Of a stretch of DNA of 64,000 bases, positions 1,417-26,860 are shown piece after piece. Location of the stretch: assembly GCF_988242995.1 (NCBI RefSeq), contig NZ_OZ547043.1. The stretch is one strand, 5' to 3'. Position numbers and translations under genes: made by a program. Each line of letters opens with the position of its first letter. Position 1 is the first letter of the stretch. The notes under the pieces are model-generated. The model saw only the letters and a program-made list of their open reading frames with translations. It was not told where the DNA came from and did no database searches.

Positions 1417-1435
1417 TTGTCAGGAGTTTTAATAA

Positions 1436-5698: not shown

Positions 5699-5702
5699 TC
5701 CC

Positions 5703-6985: not shown

Positions 6986-7004
6986 TGAAAAACGTTTTAT
7001 GTGA

Positions 7005-7030
7005 AACCGCCTCCGGGCGGTTTTATCGTT
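7005..7030 (+). terminator. Terminator-like hairpin between I and J
   Basis: aaccgcc-tccg-ggcggtt stem-loop followed by a T-rich run, 16-40 nt upstream of the J start. Confidence 0.3.
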
Positions 7031-7045
7031 TATGGAGCATGACGA

Positions 7046-10441: not shown

Positions 10442-10460
10442 ATTTTATAACCCAGATACG

Positions 10461-10487
10461 GGCACCAGAAATGGTGCCTTTTTTATT
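10461..10487 (+). terminator. Intrinsic terminator downstream of J
   Basis: ggcacc-agaaat-ggtgcc hairpin followed by TTTTTTATT. Confidence 0.6.
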
Positions 10488-10508
10488 GCAGAAAAGCGAG
10501 AGGTAATT

Positions 10509-11108
10509 ATGCGTAAATTATGTGCTGTTATTCTGTCCGCAGTAGTCTGGCTGGTTGCCGCTGGTACGCCAGCGAGCGCAGCAGAGCATCAGTCCACACT
10601 AAGCGCCGGGTATCTTCAGACCCATACTGATATGCCAGGCAGTGATGACCTGAAGGGCATTAACGTGAAATACCGTTATGAATTTACGGACATGCTGGGG
10701 CTGGTGACGTCATTCAGTTATGCCAATGCCAAAGATGAGCAAAGAACGCATTACAGCGATACCCGCTGGCATGAAGATTCAGTGCGTAACCGCTGGTTCA
10801 GCATGATGGCGGGGCCATCTGTACGCGTGAATGAATGGTTCAGTGCTTATGCGATGGCAGGTGTGGCTTACAGCCGTGTTTCGACGTTCTCCGGGGATTA
10901 TCTCCGCGTAACTGACAACAAGGGGAAAACGCACGATGTGCTGACCGGAAGTGATGACGATCGCCACAGCAACACGTCTCTGGCGTGGGGAGCTGGCGTG
11001 CAGTTTAACCCGACCGAATCCGTGGCCATTGATATTGCTTATGAAGGCTCCGGCAGTGGCGACTGGCGCACTGACGGTTTCATCGTGGGTGTCGGTTATA
11101 AGTTCTGA
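10509..11108 (+). CDS. lom: Lom-like outer membrane beta-barrel protein (Ail/Lom/PagC family)
   Basis: 199 aa with a signal peptide and a C-terminal aromatic residue (…VGVGYKF); lambda lom position between J and stf; bracketed by terminator hairpins. Confidence 0.8.
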   Translation: MRKLCAVILSAVVWLVAAGTPASAAEHQSTLSAGYLQTHTDMPGSDDLKGINVKYRYEFTDMLGLVTSFSYANAKDEQRTHYSDTRWHEDSVRNRWFSMMAGPSVRVNEWFSAYAMAGVAYSRVSTFSGDYLRVTDNKGKTHDVLTGSDDDRHSNTSLAWGAGVQFNPTESVAIDIAYEGSGSGDWRTDGFIVGVGYKF

Positions 11109-11134
11109 TTAGCCAGGTAACACAGTGTTATGAC

Positions 11135-11162
11135 AGCCCGCCGGTTCAGGCGGGCTTTTTTG
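11135..11162 (+). terminator. Intrinsic terminator downstream of lom
   Basis: agcccgcc-ggttcag-gcgggct hairpin followed by TTTTTTG. Confidence 0.6.
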
Positions 11163-11166
11163 TGGA

Positions 11167-13530
11167 GTGGATATGGCAGCAGTAAAAATCTCAGGTGTGC
11201 TGAAAGATGGTGCGGGAAAACCAATACAGAACTGCACTATTCAACTGAAGGCAAAGCGTAACAGCACCACGGTACTGGTGAACACGGTGGCCTCTGAAAA
11301 TCCGGATGAAGCCGGGCGTTACAGCATGGATGTTGAGTATGGTCAGTACAGCGTCACCCTGCTGGTTGAAGGTTTTCCGCCTTCACATGCCGGGACCATT
11401 ACCGTCTATGAAGGTTCCAGACCAGGTACGCTGAATGATTTTCTCGGTGCCATGACGGAAGATGATGTCATGCCGGAGGCATTGCGTCGTTTTGAGGCAA
11501 TGGTGGAAGAAGCGGCACGCAACGCCGAAGCCGCCTCTCAGAGCGCAGCAGCGGCAAAGAAATCCGAAACTGCAGCGGCATCATCGAAGAACGCGGCGAA
11601 AACCTCAGAAACAAATGCAGCTAACAGCGCACAGGCGGCAGCGTCCTCGCAGACTGCATCGGCAAACTCCGCGACAGCAGCCAAAAAATCAGAAACCAAC
11701 GCGAAAAATAGCGAGACAGCCGCAAAGACGAGCGAAACCAACGCAAAGTCCAGCCAGACGGCAGCGAAAACAAGCGAAACGAATGCCAAAGCCAGTGAAA
11801 CTGCGGCAAAAAACAGCCAGGTTGCAGCAGCCCAAAGCGAGAGCGCGGCAGCCGGTTCTGCGACTTCAGCAGCTGGATCAGCAACTGCTGCGGCTAACAG
11901 CCAGAAAGCTGCGAAGACGAGTGAAACTAACGCAAAGTCCAGCCAGACGGCAGCGAAGACCAGCGAAACGAATGCCAAAGCCAGCGAAACTGCGGCGAAA
12001 AACAGTCAGGATGCAGCAGCCCAAAGCGAGAGTGCTGCAGCTGGTTCTGCCACTGCATCAGCCAACAGTCAAAAAGCAGCAAAAACCAGTGAAACCAATG
12101 CAAAGACAAGCGAGACTGCAGCGGCGAACTCGGCGAAAGCATCCGCTGCAAGCCAGACCGCTGCAAAAGCAAGTGAAGACGCAGCCAGAGAGTATGCAAG
12201 CCAGGCAGCAGATCCGTATAAATATGTCTTACAGCCGCTGCCTGATGTGTGGATACCGTTTAACGATTCACTGGATATGATTACGGGCTTTTCGCCATCA
12301 TATAAAAAGATTGTTATTGGTGACGACGAAATAACGATGCCTGGCGACAAGATTGTTAAGTTTAAACGTGCATCGAAAGCAACCTATATTAACAAATCTG
12401 GTGTGTTGACAGAGGCTGCCATTGATGAGCCACGATTTGAACGTGATGGCCTGCTTATTGAGGGGCAAAGAACTAATCTTCTGCTTAATTCAACAAATCC
12501 ATCTAAATGGAATAAGTCAGGCAATCTGGAACTCACAGAAATATCCACGGATTCTTTTAATTTTACTTATGGGAGATTTACTGTAAAAGATACTCTTATT
12601 GGTCAGACAAGTGCTATTAATATCGTAACGATTTCTGGCAGTAAAGGGTTTGATGTCACAGGTGATGAAAAATATGTGACCATTTCATGCCGTGTAAGAA
12701 GTGATGTTGAAAATATAAGGTGTCGTTTAAGATTTGAACACCATGATGGTTATACTTACACTTTTTTGGGAGATGCTTACCTCAATTTATCAACACTTGT
12801 AATTGATAAAACTGGTACTGCTGCAGACCGTATTATTGCAAAGGCTGTAAAAGATGAGGTTACTGGTTGGATTTTCTATCAGGCTACAATTAATGCACTA
12901 GATACAGAGAGCATGATTGGTGCGATGGTTCAATACGCTCCTGTAAAAGGTTCAGGTACAGCATCTGGAGACTATCTGGATATCGCAACTCCACAAGTGG
13001 AAGGTGGATCAAGTGCTTCGTCATTTATTGTAACTGATATAACTGCAAGCACTCGCGCAAGCGATATGGTGACAGTCCCAATCAAGAATAACCTTTATAA
13101 TCTTCCTTTTACGGTTCTTTGTGAGGTACATAAGAACTGGTATAAAACGCCAAATGCAGCACCGCGTGTTTTTGATACCGGCGGTCATCAAACCGGAGCG
13201 GCTATTATTCTTGGCTTCGGTCGTTCAACAGATTACGACGGATTTCCTTATTGTGATATAGGTTTGGCTAACAGACGGGTAAACGAAAACGCATCGCTTG
13301 AAAAAATGGTTATGGGGATGCGTGTAAAGTCAGATCAGTCTACGTGCTCAGTAAGTAACGGGCGTATATCCAGCGAAAAGAAAGCCACATGGTCCTATAT
13401 TCAGAACTCCGCAATTATCCGTATTGGAGGCCAGACTACAGCCGGGTTGCGTCATTTATTTGGTCATGTCAGGAATTTCAGAATATGGCACAAGGCATTG
13501 ACTGATGCTCAGATGGGGGAGTCAATCTAA
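11167..13530 (+). CDS. stf: Side tail fibre protein (Stf-like) with a replaced C-terminal receptor-binding region
   Basis: 787 aa; N-terminal region with Ala/Ser/Thr-rich KTSETNAK-type repeats typical of Stf; the C-terminal ~400 aa are markedly AT-richer by eye and end in a motif (GHVRNFRIWHKALTDAQM) reminiscent of ConA/LamG-like lectin folds. Confidence 0.8.
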   Translation: MDMAAVKISGVLKDGAGKPIQNCTIQLKAKRNSTTVLVNTVASENPDEAGRYSMDVEYGQYSVTLLVEGFPPSHAGTITVYEGSRPGTLNDFLGAMTEDDVMPEALRRFEAMVEEAARNAEAASQSAAAAKKSETAAASSKNAAKTSETNAANSAQAAASSQTASANSATAAKKSETNAKNSETAAKTSETNAKSSQTAAKTSETNAKASETAAKNSQVAAAQSESAAAGSATSAAGSATAAANSQKAAKTSETNAKSSQTAAKTSETNAKASETAAKNSQDAAAQSESAAAGSATASANSQKAAKTSETNAKTSETAAANSAKASAASQTAAKASEDAAREYASQAADPYKYVLQPLPDVWIPFNDSLDMITGFSPSYKKIVIGDDEITMPGDKIVKFKRASKATYINKSGVLTEAAIDEPRFERDGLLIEGQRTNLLLNSTNPSKWNKSGNLELTEISTDSFNFTYGRFTVKDTLIGQTSAINIVTISGSKGFDVTGDEKYVTISCRVRSDVENIRCRLRFEHHDGYTYTFLGDAYLNLSTLVIDKTGTAADRIIAKAVKDEVTGWIFYQATINALDTESMIGAMVQYAPVKGSGTASGDYLDIATPQVEGGSSASSFIVTDITASTRASDMVTVPIKNNLYNLPFTVLCEVHKNWYKTPNAAPRVFDTGGHQTGAAIILGFGRSTDYDGFPYCDIGLANRRVNENASLEKMVMGMRVKSDQSTCSVSNGRISSEKKATWSYIQNSAIIRIGGQTTAGLRHLFGHVRNFRIWHKALTDAQMGESI

Positions 13531-13811
13531 TGAAAGATTTAACACTCAAATTTGCAGACAGGGCCGACTTTTCGGCCTTTATGGATAGCATTGGCTATTA
13601 TGATGACGAGTCGATGCAGGATGATATTCTTATTGACGTGATAGGTAACGTGTACAAAGAAACCGGAGAACTGACTGAAGATGGCGAACCGGTATGTGTT
13701 AAGGAAGACGGATATTTTGTAAACGTGCGCATCATTAATGATGCAAAAAAATCGTCAATATTCGATGAATACGCGGTTGTAGTTGAACATCAACTTCGTG
13801 GCTGGATGTGA
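13530..13811 (+). CDS. Hypothetical acidic 93-aa protein; possible tail-fibre chaperone
   Basis: ATG overlaps the stf stop (TAATG), suggesting translational coupling; no family recognised. Confidence 0.4.
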   Translation: MKDLTLKFADRADFSAFMDSIGYYDDESMQDDILIDVIGNVYKETGELTEDGEPVCVKEDGYFVNVRIINDAKKSSIFDEYAVVVEHQLRGWM

Positions 13812-13820
13812 GGGAGACAA

Positions 13821-14525
13821 ATGGCTACATCGACAGTAATTCCAGGAGACATCACCACGTTAAAGGGAGATGTCAGTAAAGCCAAGGAAGATATTTCCTC
13901 AATTAACGGAAAAGTATCAACGCTTCAGGCTGATATGACCAGTGCAAAGCAGGATATCAGCACCAGATACACAAAAACTGAAGTTGATAATAAGCTGAAA
14001 AACAAACTGGAAGTGAACGCTCTGGAAAGCGGTCGTTATGGTGGAGATTTTTACCCGTTGACTGGCCGTGAAGCGTTTTATTTGTGGGGATTGGGCACGA
14101 CTACAGCGGCGGCAAACCTTTATCTTAATCCTGACCCCGCAATTTCGTCTGTGCTGCGGTCAACATCGTCTATCCGCTATAAACATTCAGTAGAGACAAT
14201 AGATTCAGAGCACGCCGAACTCATTTTCAGGATGCGCCCTGTGTGGTACAGGTCACAATGCGAAAATGACAGGCGTGACTGGGGATTCTACGGATTGATT
14301 GCCGAGGAAGTAGGAGAAATTGCCCCTCAGTTTGTACACTGGCGACCAGCTAACGAAGATGATGCACCGGAAGCTATTTCCAGCAATGGCCTTGTTGCCG
14401 AAGGTGTAATGTACGAACGTCTGGTTGTTCCACTGATTCACCATATCCAGAAGCTGACTGAAAGAGTTGATGAACTTGAGTCAGAATTAAAGTTGTTATC
14501 CGTTTCCCGAAGCGATATCGGATAA
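13821..14525 (+). CDS. Short fibre-like protein: N-terminal coiled coil plus C-terminal intramolecular-chaperone (peptidase S74-like) domain
   Basis: 234 aa; heptad-repeat N-terminus; C-terminal region (RPVWYRSQ...WGFYGLIAEEVGEIAPQFV...MYERLVVPLIHHIQKLTERVDELESEL) matches, from memory, the self-cleaving chaperone domain of endosialidase and T5 L-shaped tail fibres. Confidence 0.5.
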   Translation: MATSTVIPGDITTLKGDVSKAKEDISSINGKVSTLQADMTSAKQDISTRYTKTEVDNKLKNKLEVNALESGRYGGDFYPLTGREAFYLWGLGTTTAAANLYLNPDPAISSVLRSTSSIRYKHSVETIDSEHAELIFRMRPVWYRSQCENDRRDWGFYGLIAEEVGEIAPQFVHWRPANEDDAPEAISSNGLVAEGVMYERLVVPLIHHIQKLTERVDELESELKLLSVSRSDIG

Positions 14526-14535
14526 AGGAGGAGTA

Positions 14536-14829
14536 ATGGATATAACACCTTTCCTTCATGCGCTTTGTGCTGTGGCTGCGCAGCTACTGATTGGTCTTTT
14601 TACCGGGAACTGGGCTTACGGGGCGATAGCCGGTTGTACGTTCTTCATTGCGCGTGAACACACCCAGGCAGAATATCGCTGGATCGAAATGTTCGGGCAT
14701 GGCAAGCGAATGAATATGCCGTGGTGGGGCGGTTTTGATCCGCGCGCGTGGGATGTGGCAAGCCTGATGGATTTTGCTGTGCCGGTGGTGGCGTGTCTGC
14801 TGGTCTGGCTGTTGGTTAATCGTGGGTGA
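14536..14829 (+). CDS. Hypothetical small membrane protein
   Basis: 97 aa with two to three hydrophobic segments; GC-rich coding sequence; function unknown. Confidence 0.35.
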   Translation: MDITPFLHALCAVAAQLLIGLFTGNWAYGAIAGCTFFIAREHTQAEYRWIEMFGHGKRMNMPWWGGFDPRAWDVASLMDFAVPVVACLLVWLLVNRG

Positions 14830-14839
14830 AAAAAGGTGA

Positions 14840-14968
14840 GCTGTATATGCAACGGAGGAAGAAACCCCGTTGCTGGAAGCCTGGAAAAAGTATCGGATGC
14901 TGCTGAACCGTGTTGATACATCAACTGCACCTGATATTGAGTGGCCTACGAACCCTGTCAGGGAGTAA
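14840..14968 (+). pseudogene. tfa: 3' remnant of a tail fibre assembly gene (tfa), lacking start and N-terminal part
   Basis: Frame-2 translation gives ...[36 protein letters not shown], which matches the conserved C-terminus of lambda/P2-type Tfa proteins as I recall it; an in-frame stop lies immediately upstream (14837-14839). Confidence 0.55.
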
Positions 14969-15180
14969 TCATTGGGATTATGCCGCAGAAACGTTGTATG
15001 CAATAACGTTCTGCGGTTGGCTGATGCACTTTCGAGAGTGCATGTATTGAATTATTTCCAGCTATTATCGATTTTACGTATTTTTTGCATGAGAGAATTT
15101 GTACCTCCTCCCAACAACGACCTTCCATGACTTTCCGGACTTCTGTGGGCCAGCGGACGATGCTGCCCTCGGATGTTGTG

Positions 15181-16038
15181 CTAATTGGGTGATGACAAAT
15201 CCTGTGTATGGGTGTTTCCCTTTGTGCGTGCGTTGATGCTGGTAACGGTGAACGTCATGATGAACACAACCGCGAATAAGACGACAATCGTCGGAGCTGG
15301 TGCACTGTCGATAAAAAAGGACAACCAGACACCAGTCATTGACACTATTACCGATATGCCAATCGCCAGTAGGAGCGCAATATGAAAGCGTTGTGTCAGG
15401 AGTACCGCAATGGCGCCAGGCGCAATGAGCAGAGAAATGGAGAGAATGATACCTACCGCTTTCAGCGTCGCCACAATGGTCAGAGAGACCATGCACAGCA
15501 GCCCATAATGCAGACATCTCGTATGCAAACCGCTTACCTGCGCCTGTTGATAATCAAAGCTGAACAGCAAAAAATCCCGCCATTTTACGCTAATAACAAG
15601 TGTAACCAGCCCGGCAATAATCACCGTCTGGATTATATCGCCGATGGTTACCCCGAGCATGTCGCCGAAAAGAATATGGTCAAGATGTACGTCTGGTTTG
15701 ACTGCAATATACAAGATCAGACCTGCGGCAAACATGCCAGAAAAAACAATCCCCATCACTGTATCTTGCTTGATTCGGCTGTTGTCTTTCAGGTATCCCG
15801 TCGCCACCGCGCAGAATACTCCGGCGACGAATGCCCCTGTAGCCAGAGGTAACCCCAGAATCCAGGCAAGCACGATGCCAGGAAAAACCGCATGACTCAT
15901 CGCGTCACCCATCAGTGCCCAACCTTTCAGGACCAGAAAGACCGACAGCAGCGCACAGGGTATGGAAACTACCAGTGAAATCAGCAGTGCGTGACTCATA
16001 AAGGTGAACTGCAGTGGCTCCAGTAATAATGCCATCAT
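15181..16038 (-). CDS. sitD: Mn/Fe ABC transporter permease SitD
   Basis: 285-aa polytopic membrane protein of the ABC-3 (ZnuB/MntB) type; last gene of a four-gene operon with overlapping stop/start codons. Confidence 0.8.
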   Translation of the reverse strand: MMALLLEPLQFTFMSHALLISLVVSIPCALLSVFLVLKGWALMGDAMSHAVFPGIVLAWILGLPLATGAFVAGVFCAVATGYLKDNSRIKQDTVMGIVFSGMFAAGLILYIAVKPDVHLDHILFGDMLGVTIGDIIQTVIIAGLVTLVISVKWRDFLLFSFDYQQAQVSGLHTRCLHYGLLCMVSLTIVATLKAVGIILSISLLIAPGAIAVLLTQRFHIALLLAIGISVIVSMTGVWLSFFIDSAPAPTIVVLFAVVFIMTFTVTSINARTKGNTHTQDLSSPN

Positions 16039-16892
16039 GAGCGATCCTCCAGCGCTTTATGCGCACGCCGACGATTTGCCAAAAGCCCATGGGTGGGCGC
16101 AAATACAAATGCTAAAAGAAACAGCAGTGTCTGCGCCACCACGATGATTCCACCTGTCGCGCCGTCCAGAAAGTAACTGACCCACGCGCCGAGGAAACTG
16201 GTTACACTGCCAATAGTTACAGCAATTATGAGCAGGCGGGGAAAACGATCGGTTAACAACCATGCTGTTGCACCGGGAGTCACCACCAGACAGATCACCA
16301 GAAAGGCACCAACCGTTTGCAGCGCCGCAACGGTCGAAACCGACAGCAGGGTGAAGAAGAGGATTTTTAATCTGCCCGGATGCAATCCAATAGCACGAGC
16401 GTGATTCTCGTCGAAAAAGGTCACCATAAGATCTTTCCATTTGAAAAAAAGCACGATGATCGAGAGAATGCCAATGATAGTGAGTTGCAGGATATCCGCC
16501 GGATCGATTGCCAGAATATTGCCCAGGACGATGGTCTGAATGTTCACGGATGTCGGGTTCAATGACACCATAAACAGCCCCAGGCCAAAAAAGGAGGAGA
16601 AGATCAGGCCGATGATGGCATCTTCTTTTAAGCGAGTGCGTTGGTTAAGAAACAGCATGCTGCCCGCTGCCAGTCCGCCGGAAAAGAAGGCTCCCAGAGA
16701 AAACGGAAGCCCCAGCATATATGCCCCCGCAACACCCGGGACAATAGAGTGCGACAGCGCATCGCCAATCAGCGACCAGCCTTTTAGCATCAGATAGCAT
16801 GACAGGAAAGCGCAGAGACCGCCGACCATCGCCGAGACCCACATCGCATTGAGCATATATTCATAGCTGAAGGGTTCCAGTAGCACGTTCAT
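16035..16892 (-). CDS. sitC: Mn/Fe ABC transporter permease SitC
   Basis: 285-aa polytopic membrane protein; overlaps sitB and sitD by 4 nt each. Confidence 0.8.
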
Positions 16893-17716
16893 CTTGCTTC
16901 CCCCTGCACCGCTGACGGTCGATGTGCCACAAAAGGGTGTTCATCGTCAGTAATAATGCTTTCTTCCGAGCCGTTAAGTGTGACATGGCGCAGTACGCCG
17001 CTAAAAGCCAGCTCCAGGTTCTCGGCTGTAAAAGTGGTGTCTGTCGGCCCGCTTGCCAGGACGGTGCCTTTGACCATGACCGTATAATCGCAAAATGTCG
17101 TGACTGAGCCGAGATTGTGCGTTGAGACAAGCATCGTCTTGCCTTCCGCGCGTAACTCCCTCAACAGGCTGATGATTTTCGCTTCGGTTTTCACATCAAC
17201 GCCCGTAAAAGGTTCATCCAGCAGGATCACATCACCCTGCTGTGCAATCGCTCTCGCCAGAAAGACGCGTTTCTTTTGTCCACCGGAAAGCTCGCCGATT
17301 TGTCGATGGCGAAAATCCACCATATCGACACGTTCCAGCGCATCGGTGACAATCTGACGATCCCTCTTTTTGGCTATACGCAACATACCCATGTGCCCAT
17401 AGCGGCCCATCATCACCACATCTTCCACTAGTACAGGAAATGACCAGTCAACCTCTTCTGACTGAGGGACGTAGGCAACCAGGTTTTTCTGTAGCGCCTG
17501 TCGCGTGGGAATACCCAGAACAGATATCTTTCCGCTGGTCAGACGCACAAATCCCATAATCGCTTTAAACAACGTCGATTTTCCGGAACCGTTTACCCCA
17601 ACCAGAGCGGCAATAGATCCACTTGGTACTGTGAAGGATGCATCGCGCAGTGCTGTGTGCCCGTTACGCCAGGTGACAGTAACATCATTAACGACAATGC
17701 CCGCAGATTGCATCAT
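16889..17716 (-). CDS. sitB: Mn/Fe ABC transporter ATP-binding protein SitB
   Basis: Walker [10 protein letters not shown], signature LSGGQKKR, Walker B ILLDEP. Confidence 0.85.
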
Positions 17717-18630
17717 TATTTCTCCCTTTTCCCGGCTTTAATTCCCTGTACCAGCGTACTGGTAGTAACCTTCAGAAGGTCGATATACGTAGGTACCGGG
17801 CCGTTTTCTGTGCTCAGGGAATCGACATAGAGTACACCGCCGTAGTGCGCGCCGGTTTCACGCGCAACCTGACGCGCTGGTTTATCGGAAATCGTACTCT
17901 CGCTAAAGACTGCCGGGATATGATTTTTCTTCACCATATCAACAACCTTACGTACCTGCTGCGGCGTGCCTTGTTGATCGGCATTAATCGGCCACAGATA
18001 AAGCTCTTTTAGCCCCAAATCGCGTGCGAGATAAGAAAAAGCCCCTTCACTGGTGACCATCCATCGCTGATTCTCAGGGAGTTCAGCAATCTGCTTACGC
18101 AGGGGGGCAAGGGTTTGGGTAATCTTGGCTTTATAAGTATCGGCATTACGTTGGTAGGTTTGTGCATTTGCCGGATCGTATTTTATCAACGCATCACGAA
18201 TATTATCGACGTAAATCAGAGCATTATCTGGCGACATCCAGGCATGGGGGTTAGGTTTGCCCTCATAGGGGCCTTCAGTGATCCCTACTGGCGTCACACC
18301 CGAAGAGACAATTACTTCTGGAACCCCATTAAGATGCTGGTAAAAGCGTTGGAACCACAATTCCAGATTCATACCATTGGCGAGAATCAGTTGTGCCCCC
18401 TGCGCACGTTTAATATCGCCAGGGGTAGGCTGATACTCATGAATTTCTGCACCGGGCTTGGTTATGGATGAGACTTCTGCAGCATCTCCAGCCACGTTTT
18501 TGGCCATATCTGCGATGATGGTAAATGTTGTAATGACCTTGAATTTTTCAGTTGCACTCGCCTGAAATGCGATCGAGCAGGTGAGGGCGAGGCACCCCAA
18601 GAGCATGGTTACTTTTTTTATTGAGTACAT
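17716..18630 (-). CDS. sitA: Periplasmic metal-binding protein SitA (cluster A-I substrate-binding protein)
   Basis: 304 aa with a signal peptide; first gene of the operon; MntR and Fur boxes lie upstream. Confidence 0.85.
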
Positions 18631-18662
18631 AATTTAGTACCTATAGTGAGCAAAATTAGAAC

Positions 18663-18684
18663 AAACATAGCAACGGCTATGTTT
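18663..18684 (-). promoter_or_regulatory. MntR-box palindrome upstream of sitA
   Basis: AAACATAGCAACGGCTATGTTT, a perfect 9-bp inverted repeat matching the MntR operator type, ~33 bp upstream of the sitA start. Confidence 0.6.
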
Positions 18685-18703
18685 TATAGCACAACCTATA
18701 CAA

Positions 18704-18722
18704 AATGAAAATGATTATCATT
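18704..18722 (-). promoter_or_regulatory. Fur box upstream of sitA
   Basis: AATGAAAATGATTATCATT; about 16 of 19 positions match GATAATGATAATCATTATC. Confidence 0.55.
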
Positions 18723-18840
18723 AGCAGCTTTGGGGCCCAAAACAGGGATTAGGTTGTTTCCTGCTGGCGACGCGTTATTGAGGAAAAAAGTAAGGCAGCT
18801 AGTAGGCTTTGAAATGACTTGATGAGGAAAATTGTTGATG

Positions 18841-18892
18841 GCAAAAATGGGGCAAAGCGCTGCAAAAGGGGCAAAAAAGGGGCAAAAAAAGA
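18841..18892. repeat. Phased G-GCAAAA A-tract repeats (five copies at ~10-11 bp spacing); predicted intrinsically bent DNA
   Basis: gcaaaaatggggcaaagcgctgcaaaaggggcaaaaaaggggcaaaaaaag, with repeat starts at about 18841, 18852, 18862, 18871 and 18882. Confidence 0.5.
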
Positions 18893-19184
18893 GTGGGTTA
18901 TCGTAGCTTATTGTTGTCGCTGATGATATTTAACACATTGAAAAATAAGTAAAATACTTATGAGTCAGAGAGTTGTGATTTTTGCCCTTACTTGTTCAGG
19001 TTGTATTGTTCTTTCTTACTAAATTCTTGATTTTGCGACATTTAAAAGCGACTCAATTCGTTATATGGCATCAGAAGAGTATGCGTCATGCCGGAACGCC
19101 CAGCATAAGAAATCTGATATAAAAACTGTGGCGTGTATGGTACGGATTAGAGGGGAAAATGTCAGCACATTTGCGAAATGAATC

Positions 19185-19210
19185 AAAAAGCCCGCAGGAA
19201 TGTGCGGGCG
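19185..19210 (-). terminator. Intrinsic terminator downstream of uspF
   Basis: On the minus strand, a gcccgca-cattcc-tgcgggc hairpin followed by TTTTTG. Confidence 0.55.
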
Positions 19211-19216
19211 TTAGTG

Positions 19217-19732
<516 letters not shown>

Positions 19733-19759
19733 TTAGATCAAAGGAGGAAGAATAAGCAG

Positions 19760-19783
19760 AAAAAGCCCGCCATAACAGCGGGC
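19760..19783 (-). terminator. Intrinsic terminator downstream of ompN
   Basis: On the minus strand, a gcccgc-tgttat-ggcgggc hairpin followed by TTTTTC. Confidence 0.55.
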
Positions 19784-19791
19784 AGGAGGAT

Positions 19792-20910
19792 TTAGAACTG
19801 ATAAACCAGACCTAAAGCGACAATATCATCGGTAGAGATGCCGTTGGCAGCGTAGAAGCTGTCATCTTCATCCAACAGGTTGATTTTATAGTCAACATAA
19901 GTGGACATGTTTTTATTGAAATAGTAAGTCGCGCCAACATCGGCGTATTTAACCAGATCTTTATCACCGTCGGTACCGACCAAATCCTTGCCTTTAGACA
20001 TCAGGAAAGAGACTGCCGGACGCAGCCCAAAATCGAACTGATACTGCGCAGTAACTTCAAAGTTCTGGGTTTTGTTGGCAATCGTATTTGTTGAATCACC
20101 GTAAGGTGTCATGTTACGCGTTTCAGAATACATGGTCGCCAGGTAGATATTGTTAGCATCGTATTTTGCCCCGGCAGTCCAGGCATCTGCCTTATCGCCT
20201 TTTGCGGTAGAGAATTCAGCCTGCTGGTTAGTGCGATCGGAACTGGTATAGGCGGCACCAAAACTCATGCCCATACCTAAGTCGTAGGTAGTAGAGATGC
20301 CAAGACCGTCGCCATTGGCGTTCTTAATGTTTCGATCACCACCGTTTGCGGTACCTTCTTGCTCATGGGTGACCTGGTTTTCATTCGCACCCTGGTACTG
20401 TAACGCAAAATTCAGACCATCAACCAGACCGAAGAAATCAGTATTACGATAGGTTGCTACGCCATTGGCTCGACCGGTCATATAGTTATCGGCTTTGGTA
20501 TAAGAGTCACCACCGAATTCCGGTAGCATATCGGTCCAGCCTTCGATGTCGTACATTACGCCATAATTACGACCATAGTCGAATGAACCCAGGTCACCAA
20601 ATTTCAGACCGGCAAAAGCAAGACGAGTCCAGGAATCACCTTTATCACCTTCAGAGCCATTAGCCTGCACGTTATATTCCCACTGGCCATACCCAACCAG
20701 TTGATCCGTGATTTGCGTTTCACCCTTAAAACCAAAACGCACATAAGTTTGATCACCATCACTATTGGTATTATCAGAAAAATAATGCAGGCCATCAACT
20801 TTGCCATACAGATCTAATTTGTTGCCGTCTTTATTATAAACTTCGGCTGCATGTGCAGCACCTGCGGCGAGCAGGGCAGGAATTAAAAGTGCCAGTACTT
20901 TGCTTTTCAT
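19792..20910 (-). CDS. ompN: Outer membrane porin OmpN (OmpC/OmpF family)
   Basis: 372 aa; signal peptide [21 protein letters not shown], porin-like body, C-terminal ...GLVYQF. Confidence 0.8.
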
Positions 20911-21138
20911 TGAATAAATCCTTTAGTTATTTTATTTGCCTTTTCATCCCCATTTTGGGGAGTGAAAGCATCCTAAAGGAGAAGTTCAGTTAGCCGATAA
21001 ATATCATTTGTTACGCCTTAAGTAAAACCTTAATCAAATAATTCTTCTGAAATGATAATAAGTCTGGTGAATGTATTGAAGATAATACATACAAAATAAA
21101 AATTATACTTTTAATTTGCTATACGTTATTCTGCGCGG

Positions 21139-21248
21139 GTTATATGCCTTTATTGTCACAGATTTTATTTTCTGTTGGGCCATTGCGTTGCTACTGATTT
21201 TCCAACAAATAATGAGACAAGCCCGAACAGTCGTTCGGGCTTTTTTTT
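21139..21248 (+). ncRNA. micC: MicC small regulatory RNA
   Basis: Starts GTTATATGCCTTTATTGTCACAGATTTTATTTTCTGTTGGGCCATTGC and ends in a GCCCGAAC-AGTC-GTTCGGGC hairpin plus T8; matches the MicC sequence I recall and its known location between ompN and ydbK. Confidence 0.8.
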
Positions 21249-21276
21249 AGAATTGGATAATCCTTATCCAGTGCAT

Positions 21277-24200
21277 TTAATCGGTGTTGCTTTTTTCCGC
21301 TTTTCCGGCCATTTGTGCCAGGAAGTCATAGCGTTTTTGCAAATCAGCTGCAGCATCTTTCCATAACTGTTCTGCCACTTCTGGCTGCTGCGAATTCAGA
21401 CGACGGAAACGCTGCTCGTGAAGTAACGTTTCTTCCAGTGCTTCTGACGGCGGGCGTGAATCCAGTGCCAGCGGCAGTTTGCCTTCATCGGCTCGACGTG
21501 GATCGAAGCGATATAGCGGCCAGAAGCCGGTGGCAGTGAGTTGGCGCATCTGGTCGTGGCTGAGTGCCAGATCGTAACCATGCTCTTCACACGGGCTATA
21601 AGCAATGATCAGCGATGGCCCCGGATACGCTTCCGCTTCCTGAATCGCTTTCACCGTCTGGTTCAGCTGCGCGCCGAGAGAAATCTGCGCCACATAAACA
21701 TGACCGTACATCATCATACTGACGCCAAGATCTTTACGCGCTTTACGTTTGCCGTGCTCGCCAAACTTAGTCACCGCGCCAAGCGGCGTGGCTTTTGACG
21801 CCTGACCACCGGTATTGGAATAGCATTGCGTATCCAGCACCAGAATGTTGACGTTTTCCGTCAAACTCAATACATGATCCAGACCGCCAAAGCCGATATC
21901 GTAAGCCCAGCCGTCGCCACCAATCAGCCAGATTGATTTTTCCACCAGTGCATCTGCGTCACGTAGCAGTTCATGTGCTTCGGCAACATCGTTGAGTTGC
22001 TGGCGTAAAGCTGCGACCTGTTCTCGACGAACCTCTGGCGTGGCGTCTGATTTCAACGCAGTCAGTAATTCCGCCGGGATTTTATCGGCAAATTGATCCA
22101 GCAGACGCAGCACGCGGACACGGTGTTGATCGACCGTCAGGCGGAAACCAAGGCCAAATTCGGCATTATCTTCAAATAGAGAGTTCGCCCATGCCGGCCC
22201 GCGACCGTTGGTATCGGTGGTATACGGTGTAGAGGGCAGGTTACCGCCATAAATTGAAGAACAGCCGGTGGCGTTAGCGATCAACATCCGGTCGCCATAG
22301 AGCTGAGTCAGCAATTTAATATACGGCGTCTCGCCACAACCGGAGCAAGCACCGGAATATTCAAACAGCGGTGTAATCAGCTGCGATGTACGAATATCAA
22401 TACGCTCCAGTTTGCTACGGTCGATTTCTGGCAGGTTGAGGAAGAAATCGTAATTGATTTTCTCTTCTTCGACATGTTCCAGCCGCGACATCATATTGAT
22501 GGCTTTAATCTCTGGATTCTGACGGTCTTTCGCCGGGCAAACTTCGACGCACAGGTTACAACCGGTGCAATCTTCCGGAGCCACCTGCAAGACATATTTC
22601 TGCCCGCGCATATCACGCGATTTCACATCCAGCGAATGCAGGCTGGCAGGGGCGTTTTCCATCGCTTCAGGCGGCACCACTTTTGCGCGAATAGCTGAGT
22701 GTGGGCAAGCGGCGACGCAGTGGTTACATTGGGTACAGAGTTCCTCTTTCCAGATGGGGATCTCTTCGGCGATATTGCGTTTTTCCCAGCGCGTGGTGCC
22801 CATCGGCCAGGTGCCGTCTGGCGGCAGCGCCGAAACGGGGAGGGCATCACCAAGCCCGGCGAGCATCGCCGCGGTTACGGTTTTCACGAAATCAGGGGCG
22901 GCATCGGAAACCACTGGCGGTCGATTGGCGCTGTGCGGATTAACCGGCTGCAGCGGAACTTCTTCTACGGATTCACGTGCCAGCGCCAGAGCCTGCCAGT
23001 TGCGTTCCACCAGATCCTGACCTTTGCTACTGTAACTTTTGGCAATCGCACCCTGCAATTCTGCGAGGGCGCTATCGCCAGGCAGAATTTGCGTAAGATG
23101 GAAAAAAGCCATCTGCATGACGGTATTAATACGGGCCGCCAGGCCACATTCGCGGGCGATTTTCGCCGCGTTAATCACATAGAAGCGCGCTTTTTTCTGG
23201 TTTAACACGGCCTGAACTTCTTGCGGCAAGCGCGACCACACTTCATCTGCGCTGTACGGCGTGTTGAGCAGGAAAATGCCGCAAGGTTTTAAACGCTCAG
23301 CCATCTGATATTTATCGATAAACTGCAACTGGTGGCAGCCAACAAAATCAGCCTGGGAAATGAGATAAGCGGAACGAATCGGCTGTTCGCTCACGCGAAG
23401 GTGAGAAACCGTCAGGCCGCCCGCCTTTTTGGAGTCGTAAACAAAATAGCCCTGTGCGTACCACGGCGTGGAATTACCGATAATCTTGATATTGTTTTTG
23501 GTCGCGGAAACGCTGCCATCGCTACCAAGGCCATAAAACAAGGCTTCAAGTTTCGCCGAGTTTGGCAGGGTGTTTTCCGGCAACGGCAGTGACAGATTGG
23601 TCACATCATCGTAAATACCAACCGTAAAGCGCGCTTTCGGTTTAGCCGCGTTGAGCTCGGCAAATACCGCCAGTACACAGTCCGGGCCAAATTCTTTGGA
23701 TGAAAGACCATAGCGCCCACCAATGACACGGGGCAGGGTTTCGCGCTCGCCATTATTAAAGGCTTCTGCCAGTGCGGTCATCACATCCAGATAGAGCGGT
23801 TCAGCCTGGGCACCGGGTTCTTTGGTTCTGTCCAGTACCGCCACGCTGCGTACGGATCCCGGCAGAGCTTGTAGCAAGTGTTTGGCGGAGAAGGGACGGT
23901 ACAGGCGAACTTTCAGCACGCCGACTTTTTCGCCACGGGTTAGCAATTCATCAACCACTTCTTCACAGGTGCCAATGGCAGAGCCCATCAGGATAATCAC
24001 CCGTTCCGCTTGCGGATGCCCGTAATACTCAAACGGCTGATACTGACGACCTGTCGCGGCAGAGAAATCATTCATCGCCTGTTCAACATGGTCGTAAACT
24101 GCGTTGTACCACGGGTTGGTGGCTTCACGTGACTGGAAATAGGTGTCCGGGTTAGCCGAGGTACCACGAATCACCGGATGCTCCGGATTCAGCGCGCGGG

Positions 24201-24801
24201 CGCGGTGGGCATCAATTTCGGCCTGCGGTATCAGTTCAAGAATCGTGTCATCGGCCAGCGGGACAATTTTATTGATTTCGTGGGACGTGCGGAAACCATC
24301 AAAGAAATGAATAAATGGCACGCGACTCTTCAGCGTCGCGATGTGCGAAATAAGAGCAAAGTCTTGCGCTTCCTGGACGTTTGCCGCACACAACATCGCG
24401 CAACCCGTCTGGCGCACCGCCATAACGTCGGAATGATCGCCAAAAATAGAGAGTGCATGTGTGGCAACGGTACGTGCCGCTACATGCAGGACAAATGGCG
24501 TCAGTTCGCCTGCCAGTTTGTACAGCGTCGGGATCATCAGCAGCAAACCCTGCGATGACGTAAACGATGTTGAAAGGGCACCCGTCTGCAAAGCGCCATG
24601 CACGGTAGCGATAGCCCCCGCTTCCGACTGCATTTCAACCACGCGTGGTGTGTCTCCCCAAACGTTCTTCAAGCCGTTTCCGGCCCATGCATCAGCCTGT
24701 TCTGCCATCGTGGAACTGGGGGTAATAGGGTAGATGGCGATAACTTCACTGGTGCGAAACGCCACCGAAGCAACCGCGCCATTACCGTCAATAGTAATCA
24801 T
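21277..24801 (-). CDS. ydbK: Pyruvate:flavodoxin/ferredoxin oxidoreductase
   Basis: 1174 aa; 4Fe-4S cysteine motifs (CTQCNHCVAACP, CTGCNLCVEVCP); TPP-binding region. Confidence 0.9.
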   Translation of the reverse strand: MITIDGNGAVASVAFRTSEVIAIYPITPSSTMAEQADAWAGNGLKNVWGDTPRVVEMQSEAGAIATVHGALQTGALSTSFTSSQGLLLMIPTLYKLAGELTPFVLHVAARTVATHALSIFGDHSDVMAVRQTGCAMLCAANVQEAQDFALISHIATLKSRVPFIHFFDGFRTSHEINKIVPLADDTILELIPQAEIDAHRARALNPEHPVIRGTSANPDTYFQSREATNPWYNAVYDHVEQAMNDFSAATGRQYQPFEYYGHPQAERVIILMGSAIGTCEEVVDELLTRGEKVGVLKVRLYRPFSAKHLLQALPGSVRSVAVLDRTKEPGAQAEPLYLDVMTALAEAFNNGERETLPRVIGGRYGLSSKEFGPDCVLAVFAELNAAKPKARFTVGIYDDVTNLSLPLPENTLPNSAKLEALFYGLGSDGSVSATKNNIKIIGNSTPWYAQGYFVYDSKKAGGLTVSHLRVSEQPIRSAYLISQADFVGCHQLQFIDKYQMAERLKPCGIFLLNTPYSADEVWSRLPQEVQAVLNQKKARFYVINAAKIARECGLAARINTVMQMAFFHLTQILPGDSALAELQGAIAKSYSSKGQDLVERNWQALALARESVEEVPLQPVNPHSANRPPVVSDAAPDFVKTVTAAMLAGLGDALPVSALPPDGTWPMGTTRWEKRNIAEEIPIWKEELCTQCNHCVAACPHSAIRAKVVPPEAMENAPASLHSLDVKSRDMRGQKYVLQVAPEDCTGCNLCVEVCPAKDRQNPEIKAINMMSRLEHVEEEKINYDFFLNLPEIDRSKLERIDIRTSQLITPLFEYSGACSGCGETPYIKLLTQLYGDRMLIANATGCSSIYGGNLPSTPYTTDTNGRGPAWANSLFEDNAEFGLGFRLTVDQHRVRVLRLLDQFADKIPAELLTALKSDATPEVRREQVAALRQQLNDVAEAHELLRDADALVEKSIWLIGGDGWAYDIGFGGLDHVLSLTENVNILVLDTQCYSNTGGQASKATPLGAVTKFGEHGKRKARKDLGVSMMMYGHVYVAQISLGAQLNQTVKAIQEAEAYPGPSLIIAYSPCEEHGYDLALSHDQMRQLTATGFWPLYRFDPRRADEGKLPLALDSRPPSEALEETLLHEQRFRRLNSQQPEVAEQLWKDAAADLQKRYDFLAQMAGKAEKSNTD

Positions 24802-25074
24802 ATGACACCCTTACATTGCGCAAATGAGGGGCGCACGAAATTGCTGCGCGCCCAGTAGTAATCCTTCAATTTTAGCAAATGGCTTTCTTCTGCATTTTCG
24901 CTTTTGTGTCCCCCTCATCAGCGTAATGAATGTTTTGATCAAACAGAGGGCAAAAAAATAGCCATAAAAAAGTAAAAATGCGGGGCAACGCGCAGGACAG
25001 CTCTCGACGCCGCCCTCTGTGCTGCCTATTATTTATGGCGGTGTCGTTTGGCTTGAAGATCAGAGGAAGAAAAG

Positions 25075-25341
25075 ATGCGAGCAGCGTTTTGGGTAGGGTG
25101 TGCCGCTTTATTGTTGTCGGCGTGTAGTAGTGAACCTGTTCAGCAGGCGACTGCGGCGCACGTAGCGCCAGGTTTAAAAGCGTCGATGTCCAGTAGTGGA
25201 GAAGCAAATTGTGCAATGATCGGCGGTTCGCTTTCTGTTGCCCGTCAACTGGATGGTACGGCGATTGGGATGTGTGCATTACCCAACGGCAAACGCTGTA
25301 GCGAACAGTCACTTGCCGCCGGGAGCTGTGGCAGCTATTAA
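25075..25341 (+). CDS. ydbJ: Small lipoprotein YdbJ
   Basis: 88 aa with signal peptide and lipobox (LLLSACSS). Confidence 0.7.
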   Translation: MRAAFWVGCAALLLSACSSEPVQQATAAHVAPGLKASMSSSGEANCAMIGGSLSVARQLDGTAIGMCALPNGKRCSEQSLAAGSCGSY

Positions 25342-25760
25342 TTCATTAAATCCGCTAGCTTATAAGTTAATGTCTGTTTCGCGGTCGCCAGCGTTAACTG
25401 GTTCGCGGTCAGATCCACTTGTGCACCTTCTTTCAGCATTTCGCTAATGGTGTTATCGAGTTCATTAAGCTGCGGGTTAGCGCACATCATACGGGTCATT
25501 GCCAGCCCTTTGGCTGTCAGTTTACCATTAGACAGTTTGCCATCACCGCTAAAGCGGTTACACATGCTGCCGGAAATCATCATTTTTTCACCAAAGCTGA
25601 TTTCTGGCGGATTTTTATCGCTGGTCACGGGCTTACCGTTTACGCTTTCCAGCACAAAGCGATGATGCTGTAGCTGTTCTGGGGTTACAGCAATTTTGTC
25701 ATTACTTACACATCCCGCCATCAGCAGGCTTAGCGCAACAAACGCGGCTACTTTCTTCAT
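25338..25760 (-). CDS. hslJ: Heat-inducible lipoprotein HslJ
   Basis: 140 aa from MKKVAAFVALSLLMAGC, in frame with the track ORF 25338-25772. Confidence 0.8.
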   Translation of the reverse strand: MKKVAAFVALSLLMAGCVSNDKIAVTPEQLQHHRFVLESVNGKPVTSDKNPPEISFGEKMMISGSMCNRFSGDGKLSNGKLTAKGLAMTRMMCANPQLNELDNTISEMLKEGAQVDLTANQLTLATAKQTLTYKLADLMN

Positions 25761-25870
25761 TGTGGTTCTCAATTACAGTTTCTGACTCAGGACTATTTTA
25801 AGAATAGAGGATGAAAGGTCATTGGGGATTATCTGAATCAGCTCCCCTGGAATGCAGGGGAGCGGCAAGA

Positions 25871-26860
25871 TTAAACCAGTTCGTTCGGGCAGGTTTCGCC
25901 TTTTTCCAGATTGCTTAAGTTTTGCAGCGTAGTCTGAGAAATACTGGTCAGTGCTTCTGCTGTCAGGAATGCCTGGTGCCCGGTAAACAGCACGTTGTGG
26001 CAGGCAGACAGACGACGGAACACGTCATCCTGGATCACGTCGTTGGATTTGTCTTCAAAGAACAGATCGCGTTCGTTCTCATACACGTCCATACCCAACG
26101 AACCAATTTTCTGATTTTTCAGCGCTTCAATTGCCGCCTGAGAATCAATCAATGCACCGCGACTGGTATTGACGATCATCACGCCATTTTTCATCTGATC
26201 GAAGGCGGCTTCGTTCAACAGATGGTAGTTTTCCGGTGTCAGCGGGCAGTGCAGAGAGATAACGTCTGATTCAGAGAACAGGGTTGGCAGATCGACATAC
26301 TCCACACCGAGTTCCAGTGCCGCCGCACTTGGATACGGATCGAACGCCAGCAGACGCATACCAAAACCTTTCAGAATGCGCAGCATCGCCACACCGATTT
26401 TACCGGTACCGATAACGCCTGCCGTTTTGCCATACATAGTAAAGCCGGTCAGACCTTCCAGAGAGAAGTTGGCGTCACGAGTACGCTGATACGCTCGATG
26501 AATACGGCGGTTCAGCGTCATCATCATACCGATGGCGTGTTCAGCAACGGCTTCTGGATCATAGGCTGGAACACGGACTACTTTCAGCCCCAGTTCTTTT
26601 GCCGCGTCAAGGTCGACGTTATTGAAACCGGCACAGCGCAGGGCGATATATTTAACGCCGTGCTTTTTCAGCTCTTCCAGCACCGGGCGGCTGCCGTCAT
26701 CGTTTACGAAAATACATACCGCTTCGCAGCCATTGGCGGTTTTAGCGGTTTTTTCCGTCAGCAGAAAGTCAAAAAATTCCAGCTCAAAGCCAAAGGACTC
26801 GTTCACCTGTTGCAGGTACTTCTTGTCGTACTGTTTTGTGCTATAAACGGCGAGTTTCAT
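25871..26860 (-). CDS. ldhA: Fermentative D-lactate dehydrogenase (NAD-dependent 2-hydroxyacid dehydrogenase)
   Basis: 329 aa, MKLAVYSTKQYDKKYLQQVNESFGFELEFFDF..., GxGxxG fold motif. Confidence 0.95.
   Translation of the reverse strand: MKLAVYSTKQYDKKYLQQVNESFGFELEFFDFLLTEKTAKTANGCEAVCIFVNDDGSRPVLEELKKHGVKYIALRCAGFNNVDLDAAKELGLKVVRVPAYDPEAVAEHAIGMMMTLNRRIHRAYQRTRDANFSLEGLTGFTMYGKTAGVIGTGKIGVAMLRILKGFGMRLLAFDPYPSAAALELGVEYVDLPTLFSESDVISLHCPLTPENYHLLNEAAFDQMKNGVMIVNTSRGALIDSQAAIEALKNQKIGSLGMDVYENERDLFFEDKSNDVIQDDVFRRLSACHNVLFTGHQAFLTAEALTSISQTTLQNLSNLEKGETCPNELV

What the first reader, a model, noticed from the sequence alone, without database searches (positions are those of the whole stretch)
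18631..19216. Prophage-chromosome junction at the position K-12 uses for Rac
Downstream of this ~585-bp gap the genes (uspF, ompN, micC, ydbK...) follow the order I recall to the right of the Rac prophage in K-12, so this lambda-like, sit-carrying prophage appears to occupy the Rac (ttcA) attachment locus. I could not identify the att core or a ttcA-derived fragment by eye.
Basis: inference. Interest (0 to 1): 0.3.

Follow-up and report, generated by a model that had tools for sequence, protein, structure and literature searches.

The report
Rac-type prophage right end (attR)
The 586-bp gap is the right-hand attachment site of a lambda-like prophage carrying the sitABCD metal-uptake operon, integrated at the nucleotide in ttcA where K-12 carries Rac; this arrangement is common and already described.

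Summary

The gap 18631-19216 has these parts:
- **sitA control region (18631-~18818):** a perfect MntR-type palindrome and a Fur box. Other sit cassettes, in icd-site prophages and ColV plasmids, share this region.
- **Linker:** about 20 bp.
- **Phage arm (18839-18991):** 153 bp, 98.9% identical to the K-12 Rac right end over arm plus core. It begins with five GCAAAA-core repeats about one helical turn apart.
- **Att core (18992-19017):** 26 bp, identical to the Rac and Rac-SA53 core.
- **ttcC remnant (18991-19041, minus strand):** the original first 17 codons of ttcA.
- **Native chromosome:** the ttcA upstream region and the uspF terminator.

uspF, ompN, micC and ydbK follow in K-12 order.

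Among 5,426 complete E. coli genomes:
- 2,486 have an empty site.
- 1,837 carry a Rac-type attR.
- About 500 have sit next to it.

The source genome's left end lies outside the window. In three close relatives it is ttcA-intR-xisR with the same core.

Integration at ttcA and sitABCD as cargo of lambda-like phages are both published. Interest is low.

The parts
15181..18630 (-). sitDCBA operon, the prophage cargo: sitD 15181-16038, sitC 16035-16892, sitB 16889-17716, sitA 17716-18630
   Evidence: ORFs. sitB matches the NCBIfam equivalog at 590 bits, and sitA matches Mn/Fe substrate-binding-protein models. RefSeq names the 99.8%-identical stretch of genome NZ_CP026723 sitA-D.
18631..18818 (-). 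sitA 5' regulatory region, which travels with the sit cassette
   Evidence: It is shared at about 96.5% with sit in icd-site prophages (CFT073), where homology ends near 18818. ColV-plasmid sit also shares it more loosely.
18663..18684 (.). MntR-type operator: perfect palindrome AAACATAGC-N4-GCTATGTTT
   Evidence: It is the only match in the 64 kb, with 0 expected by chance, and inverted repeat I8. The consensus comes from my recollection of the E. coli mntH MntR box. Repression of Salmonella sitABCD by MntR is in PMC8970401. The terminator-like call at this spot is rejected.
18707..18725 (-). Fur box GCTAATGATAATCATTTTC, matching 17 of 19 consensus positions
   Evidence: expects 0 such matches by chance in shuffles. 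PMC6969025 reports a Fur box upstream of sit on lambda-like coliphages.
18819..18838 (.). Linker of about 20 bp between the sit cassette and the phage arm, specific to this context
   Evidence: Homology to icd-type sit ends near 18818, and homology to Rac begins at 18839.
18839..18991 (+). Phage-side arm of attR, 153 bp, equivalent to the lambda P arm
   Evidence: Arm plus core is 98.9% identical to K-12 Rac (179 bp). The outer boundary falls at -153 to -161 from the core against K-12, SA53, O157 and 2009C-3133 prophages, which have three different upstream sequence classes. Liu et al. 2015 showed XisR binds a 294-bp K-12 attR fragment.
18840..18886 (+). Five direct repeats with a GCAAA core starting at 18841, 18852, 18862, 18871 and 18882; three are exact GGGGCAAA. 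Proposed arm-type integrase sites.
   Evidence: Three of the five exact GGGGCAAA copies in the window lie within 38 bp. They are the best-conserved block in the diverged O157 arm. In phage PHB10's contiguous attP the same repeats sit at the same distances on both arms.
18978..18987 (-). Inverted copy of the repeat (GGGCAAAAAT), 4 bp from the core
   Evidence: PHB10 does not keep this orientation, so its significance is uncertain.
18992..19017 (.). 26-bp att core TTGTTCAGGTTGTATTGTTCTTTCTT, the region of strand exchange
   Evidence: It is identical at K-12 attL and attR, at attL of three relatives, and at the Rac-SA53 uspF-side att. It occurs once in the window. Empty-site genomes align from 18992 onward.
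18991..19041 (-). ttcC remnant: the original first 17 codons of ttcA (MSQNQEFSKKEQYNLNK), cut off by integration
   Evidence: It maps onto K-12 pseudogene ttcC. It differs from the phage-supplied N-terminus at the four positions reported by Liu et al. 2015, plus a private I7F change.
19042..19184 (-). Native ttcA upstream region, now orphaned, with a promoter-like site at 19165..19137
   Evidence: It is contiguous with ttcA in empty-site genomes. The promoter call is only a consensus match.
19185..19210 (-). uspF intrinsic terminator (stem 19190-19209 followed by a T run)
   Evidence: The position is conserved in K-12, SA53 and SPF_0923.
19217..24801 (-). Chromosomal flank: uspF 19217-19651, ompN 19792-20910, micC 21136-21256 (plus strand), ydbK/nifJ 21277-24801

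Best explanation
The gap is the attR junction of a Rac-type lambda-like prophage that integrated by tyrosine-integrase (IntR) site-specific recombination into the 5' end of ttcA.

Strand exchange took place within the 26-bp core at 18992-19017. Integration separated the original ttcA start (ttcC, 18991-19041), its upstream region and the uspF terminator from the rest of ttcA. That rest lies some tens of kb to the left, about 33-53 kb in the relatives examined, beyond the window, where the phage supplies a replacement N-terminus.

On the phage side of the core is a 153-bp arm. I infer that its outer GCAAAA-core repeats are arm-type binding sites for the IntR N-terminal domain, and that the stretch between them and the core binds XisR and bending proteins, as in the lambda P arm.

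Just outside that arm sits the phage's cargo, sitABCD, with its own Fur- and MntR-controlled promoter region (18631-~18818). It occupies the slot that holds pinR-ynaE-ynaM in K-12 Rac.

Shown here: the boundaries, the core, the remnant, the arm homology, the operator motifs and the population frequencies.

Inferred: the protein-binding roles of the repeats, and that this copy can still excise.
For: - **Collinearity with K-12.** It starts 153 bp inside Rac and runs through ttcC into uspF.
- **Core identity.** The 26-bp core is identical at K-12 attL and attR, at the attL of three relatives and at the Rac-SA53 uspF-side att.
- **Empty sites.** A synthetic empty site (ttcA body plus the window from the core onward) is found intact in 2,486 of 5,426 genomes. 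Those genomes align to the window from base 18992.
- **Occupied sites.** 1,837 genomes carry the arm, core and flank. Between 494 and 510 of them have sitA next to it.
- **Left end.** Relatives with this junction have ttcA-intR-xisR there.
- **Arm boundary.** It is conserved against three different upstream sequence classes.
- **Repeats.** GGGGCAAA repeats are clustered. Phage PHB10, whose att region and adjoining integrase 3' end are only 76% identical, has a contiguous attP with the same repeats on both arms at the same distances.
- **Operators.** The Fur and MntR motifs have 0 chance expectation.
- **Literature.** Rac integrates in ttcA, excision changes four TtcA residues, and XisR binds attR (PMC4632033). 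sitABCD with a Fur box was on 70% of the temperate lambda-like coliphages sequenced from infant stool isolates (PMC6969025).
Against: - The source genome's attL, intR and xisR are outside the window, and no complete genome in the collection matches the source. Integrity and excision competence of this copy are therefore unproven.
- No binding data exist for the proposed arm-type sites. The inverted copy next to the core is not conserved in PHB10.
- The review PMC7545054, citing Fisher 2009, describes sit islands as moving by homologous recombination rather than site-specifically. The sit cassette may therefore have entered a resident Rac-type prophage rather than arriving with it.
Confidence: 0.93

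Rival explanations
1. The anatomy is the same, but the junction is a fossil. The prophage in the source strain is grounded, with a lost or broken attL, intR or xisR, so the attR no longer recombines and sitABCD is fixed chromosomal cargo.
For: - Rac-like elements are often cryptic; K-12 Rac lacks head genes.
- One relative has a tape-measure gene with an internal stop. Another is a 33-kb deleted form.
- ST131 keeps only a 2.3-kb remnant, with attR deleted.
- The source left end is unseen.
Against: - Arm plus core is 98.9% identical to K-12 Rac, which still excises (PMC4632033).
- The core is intact.
- The tail genes in window 1-14000 are open.
- Relatives have full-length intR and xisR.
Confidence: 0.3
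2. sitABCD did not arrive with the integrating phage. It was swapped into a resident Rac-type prophage later, by recombination with another sit-carrying lambda-like prophage or a plasmid, which created the 18819-18845 junction.
For: - The same cassette, about 97% identical, sits at the equivalent position of icd-site prophages, with shared left-flank tail-fibre-region ORFs. It is also on ColV plasmids.
- Only about 27% of Rac-type attRs have sit.
- The literature favours homologous recombination for sit islands.
Against: This does not conflict with the attR identification; it only changes the order of events. Nothing at the right junction marks a transposition or recombination scar.
Confidence: 0.4
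3. The gap is ordinary intergenic DNA or the end of a different kind of island, such as a tRNA-type or transposon-borne one, and only sits next to uspF by chance.
For: None was found. The idea was considered because sit islands are reported at several chromosomal sites.
Against: - The core, the ttcC remnant and the Rac arm are all present at K-12's coordinates.
- There are no IS ends or tRNA fragments, and no Rfam match reaching a family's gathering score (one weak STnc310 hit at E=0.5).
Confidence: 0.01

Closest known systems
Rac cryptic prophage attR (ttcC junction) of E. coli K-12, and the Rac-like prophages CP-933R/Sp10 and Rac-SA53
   Same: The insertion nucleotide, the 26-bp core, the 51-bp ttcC remnant and the chromosomal flank all match. 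Arm plus core is 98.9% identical. Relatives carry intR and xisR at the other end.
   Different: The cargo just outside the arm is sitABCD instead of pinR-ynaE-ynaM. The tail module is full length where K-12's is deleted. The ttcC remnant has one private codon change, I7F.
Bacteriophage lambda attP/attR architecture (P arm with Int arm-type, Xis and IHF sites; core; P' arm with tandem arm-type sites)
   Same: - The tail and cargo side has an arm of about 150 bp.
- Repeats sit at the far end of that arm.
- Two or three tandem copies lie 47-75 bp beyond the core on the integrase side.
- Integrase and excisionase genes adjoin attL.
   Different: The core and the repeat motif are unrelated in sequence (GGGGCAAA here; the lambda consensus is from my memory). 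The target is inside a coding sequence, whose start the phage replaces. The binding sites here are inferred, not mapped.
sitABCD cargo ('moron') of temperate lambda-like coliphages, such as LF82 prophage Perceval and the CFT073 icd-site prophage
   Same: The same four-gene operon, with a Fur box, lies between the tail-fibre genes and attR.
   Different: Here the carrier uses the ttcA site and the Rac-type integrase arm rather than icd. The upstream region also carries a perfect MntR palindrome, which is imperfect in the ColV plasmid copy.

Membership tests
Rac-type (ttcA-integrating) prophage attR | The 26-bp att core is identical to the Rac core | tested here: met
   Window 18992-19017 equals K-12 attL and attR and the Rac-SA53 uspF-side att.
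Rac-type (ttcA-integrating) prophage attR | A displaced ttcA 5' fragment (ttcC) abuts the core on the chromosomal side | tested here: met
   Window 18991-19041 maps onto K-12 ttcC and translates to MSQNQEFSKKEQYNLNK.
Rac-type (ttcA-integrating) prophage attR | The phage-side arm is homologous to the Rac right end | tested here: met
   Arm plus core (window 18839-19017, 179 bp) is 98.9% identical to K-12, and 79-92% to SA53, 2009C-3133 and O157.
Rac-type (ttcA-integrating) prophage attR | The chromosomal flank is uspF-ompN-micC-ydbK, and an empty site exists in other strains | tested here: met
   The empty attB is present in 2,486 of 5,426 genomes, with homology starting at 18992.
Rac-type (ttcA-integrating) prophage attR | A partner attL lies inside ttcA, with adjacent intR and xisR, in the same genome | not testable with these tools
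   It is outside the window (one core copy), and the source genome is not in the collection. The feature is met in three close relatives.
Rac-type (ttcA-integrating) prophage attR | Competence for Int/Xis-dependent excision | not testable with these tools
   This needs an experiment. K-12 Rac, with a near-identical arm, does excise (PMC4632033).
Lambda-type att site with arm-type integrase sites | A short motif is repeated on both arms, away from the core, and is conserved when the rest of the arm diverges | tested here: met
   GGGGCAAA copies lie at -152 to -104 and at +47 to +75 from the core. They are conserved in O157 and in phage PHB10's attP.
Lambda-type att site with arm-type integrase sites | The integrase N-terminal domain binds those repeats; excisionase and IHF bind in between | not testable with these tools
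   Only XisR binding to a 294-bp K-12 attR fragment is published. The one IHF-like match in the arm (18931-18943, 1 mismatch) is weak.
sitABCD Fur/MntR-regulated metal-uptake cargo | A four-gene sitABCD operon | tested here: met
sitABCD Fur/MntR-regulated metal-uptake cargo | Fur and MntR operators lie upstream of sitA | tested here: met
   The Fur box matches 17 of 19 positions at 18707-18725. The MntR palindrome at 18663-18684 is perfect. Chance expectation is 0 for both. Actual repression in this strain was not tested.

The most novel reading that the evidence does not exclude
Integration leaves the native ttcA promoter region (19042-19184) orphaned. It points, on the same strand, through ttcC and the phage arm towards the sitA control region about 350 bp away.

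Host-promoter read-through could give sitABCD a basal expression that escapes Fur and MntR. Transcription across the arm could also modulate excision.

Separately, three unrelated upstream sequence classes converge at -153 to -161 from the core. This suggests a fixed cargo slot defined by the outermost integrase arm site.
Probability: 0.1. Interest if true: 0.3.

Novelty: already known. Interest (0 to 1): 0.1.

Why it matters
The result settles the map of this part of the window:
- Everything left of 18991 is prophage, including the virulence-associated sitABCD operon.
- Everything right of it is core chromosome.
- The prophage uses the Rac integration site.

It shows sitABCD sitting inside the att boundaries of a potentially excisable phage. 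That is relevant to how this metal-uptake system spreads, although its place on lambda-like coliphages is already published.

The one modest addition is a comparative delimitation of the Rac-type arm and its candidate integrase arm sites (GGGGCAAA). I did not find these described in the papers I could read.

Tried and rejected
- **Source genome.** I looked for it among 5,426 complete E. coli genomes. The best hit covers 94% at 97.4%, so the left end could only be checked in relatives.
- **Free-phage attP.** Rac-SA53, vB_EcoS-683R6 and 'Salmonella phage SPF_0923' are prophage records that include host flanks. The vB_EcoS-666R9-type records are truncated before the tail-fibre end. Only PHB10, about 76% identical, gave a contiguous attP.
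- **Fisher et al. 2009.** The paper on sit island insertion sites could not be read. Its content is cited only through the review.
- **RNA families.** Rfam found nothing in the gap at gathering threshold, and only a chance-level STnc310 hit at E=0.5.
- **Terminator call at 18663-18684.** The terminator-like call is rejected in favour of the MntR operator.
- **Small ORFs in the gap.** The 41-51-aa ORFs have no support, and RefSeq does not annotate them.
- **ColV plasmid homology.** It runs to 18845, 7 bp into the arm. Alignment shows only a short GGCAAA-like similarity, too little to say the plasmid copy came from a Rac-type phage.
- **IHF consensus scan.** It gave one weak site in the arm, which is not used as evidence.

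Full report
**Observation**

The 586 bases at 18631-19216 lie between the start of a 304-aa minus-strand ORF and the stop of a 144-aa minus-strand ORF.
- The first ORF is sitA. It matches Mn/Fe substrate-binding-protein models, and the three ORFs behind it are sitB (equivalog, 590 bits), sitC and sitD. RefSeq annotation of 99.7-99.8%-identical genomes gives the same names.
- The second ORF is uspF (equivalog NF011581, 303 bits).
- Next come ompN, MicC (Rfam RF00121, 124 bits, 21136-21256) and ydbK/nifJ.
- Window 18839-26017 is collinear with K-12 1434807-1442000 at 95%. Collinearity continues to hrpA.
- Upstream of sit, window 1-15000 is a lambda-like tail module: tail tube 3' end, tape measure, M, L, K, I, J, Lom and tail fibres. 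All ORFs are open.

**Locating the junction**

A blastn of the gap against K-12 shows homology starting at window 18839. That is 153 bp inside the annotated right end of Rac, and it runs through the ttcC pseudogene into uspF.

Window 18992-19034 also matches the 5' end of ttcA at the left end of Rac. Aligning K-12 attL and attR, the window and the attL of two relatives gives a 26-bp block identical in all of them: TTGTTCAGGTTGTATTGTTCTTTCTT, at window 18992-19017. Imperfect similarity continues on both sides.

GenBank annotates 26-bp att features at both ends of Escherichia phage Rac-SA53. The uspF-side copy is identical to this 26-mer, and the ttcA-side copy differs at 3 positions.

The minus strand of 18991-19041 encodes MSQNQEFSKKEQYNLNK, the original TtcA N-terminus. 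The phage-supplied one in K-12 is MQENQQITKKEQYNLNK. The two differ at the four positions that Liu et al. 2015 reported to change on Rac excision (PMC4632033). The window also has a private I7F substitution.

**Independent check with empty sites**

I built a synthetic attB from the K-12 ttcA body plus the window from the core onward.
- It is found intact in 2,486 of 5,426 complete E. coli genomes.
- When the arm, core and flank (18839-19216) are used as the query, those genomes align from query base 154, which is window 18992, the first base of the core.
- 1,837 genomes carry the whole Rac-type attR.
- Between 494 and 510 have sitA next to it.
- Part of the remainder has a deleted state, described below.

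**Anatomy of the gap**

1. *18631-~18818, the sitA control region.* It contains a perfect palindrome, AAACATAGC-N4-GCTATGTTT, at 18663-18684. This is the only match in the window, with 0 expected by chance. I recognise it as the MntR box from memory. It also contains a Fur box at 18707-18725 matching 17 of 19 positions, with 0 expected by chance.
   - This stretch travels with the cassette. In the CFT073-type prophage, which ends at the icd remnant (the e14 site), homology stops near 18818. In ColV plasmids it fades by 18845.
2. *18819-18838.* A context-specific linker.
3. *18839-18991, the phage arm.* Details follow in the next section.
4. *18992-19017.* The core.
5. *19018-19041.* The rest of ttcC.
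6. *19042-19184, the native ttcA upstream region.* It has one promoter-like consensus match on the minus strand.
7. *19185-19210.* The uspF terminator.

**The arm**

Pairwise comparison of 900 bp upstream of the core was done in five Rac-type prophages: the window, K-12, SA53, an O157:H7 strain and strain 2009C-3133.
- All share the arm out to -153 to -161 from the core.
- Beyond that point there are three unrelated sequence classes: sit, the K-12 ynaM side, and a third class shared by the other three out to about -307.
- The cargo beyond the arm differs in each: sitABCD, pinR-ynaE-ynaM, none (tail fibre only), three DUF1076 genes, or ompT.

The outermost 50 bp of the arm hold five direct repeats with GCAAA cores at 18841, 18852, 18862, 18871 and 18882. 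The spacing of 9-11 bp is about one helical turn.
- Three are exact GGGGCAAA. The whole window has only five such octamers, so three within 38 bp is far from chance.
- They are the best-conserved part of the O157 arm, which is 79% identical overall.
- Two or three more copies lie 47-75 bp beyond the core on the intR side of attL.

Phage PHB10 gives independent support. Its att region and adjoining integrase 3' end are only about 76% identical, and its record contains a contiguous attP. It has the same repeats at the same distances on both arms, while the intervening DNA has diverged.

By analogy with lambda, where the P arm lies on the tail side and the P' arm next to int (my knowledge), these repeats are most likely arm-type integrase sites. 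The published XisR binding to a K-12 attR fragment fits the stretch between them and the core. This is inference; no footprint exists that I could find.

**Left end**

The window holds one core copy and starts inside the tail tube gene, so attL is not visible. No complete genome in the collection matches the source.

Three relatives carry this junction: strains 1428, 266917_2 and AMSCJX02. AMSCJX02 is 100% identical over 18300-18991. In all three, the prophage's other end is ttcA-intR-xisR with the same core inside the ttcA 5' end.

**Mechanism and rivals**

The best reading is a lambda-type, IntR-mediated integration into ttcA, with sitABCD as cargo in the slot just outside the arm (confidence 0.93 for the identity of the junction).

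Whether this copy is still excisable is open.
- For: arm plus core is 98.9% identical to excision-proficient K-12 Rac, and the relatives have intact intR and xisR.
- Against: Rac-type elements decay often.

Whether sit arrived with the phage or was swapped in later is also open.
- The same cassette occurs in icd-site prophages and on plasmids.
- Only about 27% of Rac-type attRs have it.
- The literature favours homologous exchange.

Neither question affects the identification.

**Comparison with what is known**

- Rac integration in ttcA, the imperfect attL/attR and XisR are published (PMC4632033).
- Rac-locus prophages were reported in 69% of 638 Escherichia and Shigella strains (PMC6379469).
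- sitABCD with a Fur box was the most abundant virulence-associated cargo found on lambda-like coliphages from infants, present on 70% of them (PMC6969025). It is also cargo of LF82 prophage Perceval (PMC9928086).
- About 500 RefSeq complete genomes contain this same junction.

The finding is a correct reading of a known arrangement. Its novelty is 'already known' and its interest is low. The only increment is the comparative definition of the arm and its candidate integrase sites.

Noticed in passing
L012 (NZ_CP157672.1, strain ST-131) 3812-7507; corresponds to window ~19145 onward: This genome, the one genome of this match class that I opened (others, including another strain, show the same 19145-19216-only match), keeps only a 2.3-kb remnant at this locus: ttcA, an integrase fragment, a DUF1627 fragment, a frameshifted sit permease, then uspF. 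The attL core survives. A deletion has removed attR, ttcC and the ttcA upstream region up to about window 19145.
   Followed up: partly
window 33056-33757: A ~700-bp insertion relative to K-12 lies between feaB and tynA. It encodes a 169-aa ORF that looks like an IS200/IS605-family transposase, identified by eye from the motif MGNEKSLAHTRWNCKYHIVFAPKYRRQ.
   Followed up: partly
window 57683-57729: The K-12 segment 1475085-1482191 (ydbD, ynbA-D) is absent from the window at this point.
   Followed up: no
window 50776-55482: The ydbA region aligns to K-12 as many overlapping 82-92% repeat hits. It lacks K-12's IS2 and IS30 insertions, so it may be an intact repeat-rich ydbA. The Fur-consensus hits at 50391-50409 are GAT/CAT simple repeats, not operators.
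   Followed up: no
L007 (ON032529.1, 'Salmonella phage SPF_0923') 349-7468: This record is deposited as a complete Salmonella phage genome. It contains the same sit-attR junction followed by uspF, ompN and ydbK, so it appears to be a prophage prediction that runs into host chromosome of E. coli type.
   Followed up: partly
L010 (ColV-type plasmid NZ_CP069998.1) 6680-6720 vs window 18835-18850: Plasmid sit homology runs about 7 bp into the Rac-type arm. The plasmid then reads GGCAAAGCAAAAAT, which resembles the first arm repeats. This could be a vestige of a phage origin for the plasmid cassette, or chance.
   Followed up: partly
window 19024 (within ttcC remnant): A private substitution (taaattc here, taatttc in K-12, SA53, SPF_0923, O157 and 2009C-3133) changes codon 7 of the displaced ttcA start from Ile to Phe.
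   Followed up: yes
L014 297-2297, L015 912-1865, L018 600-1274: The region beyond the Rac-type arm holds different cargo in different phages: three DUF1076 genes in O157:H7, ompT in strain 2009C-3133, and an SOS-response-associated peptidase in phage PHB10.
   Followed up: no
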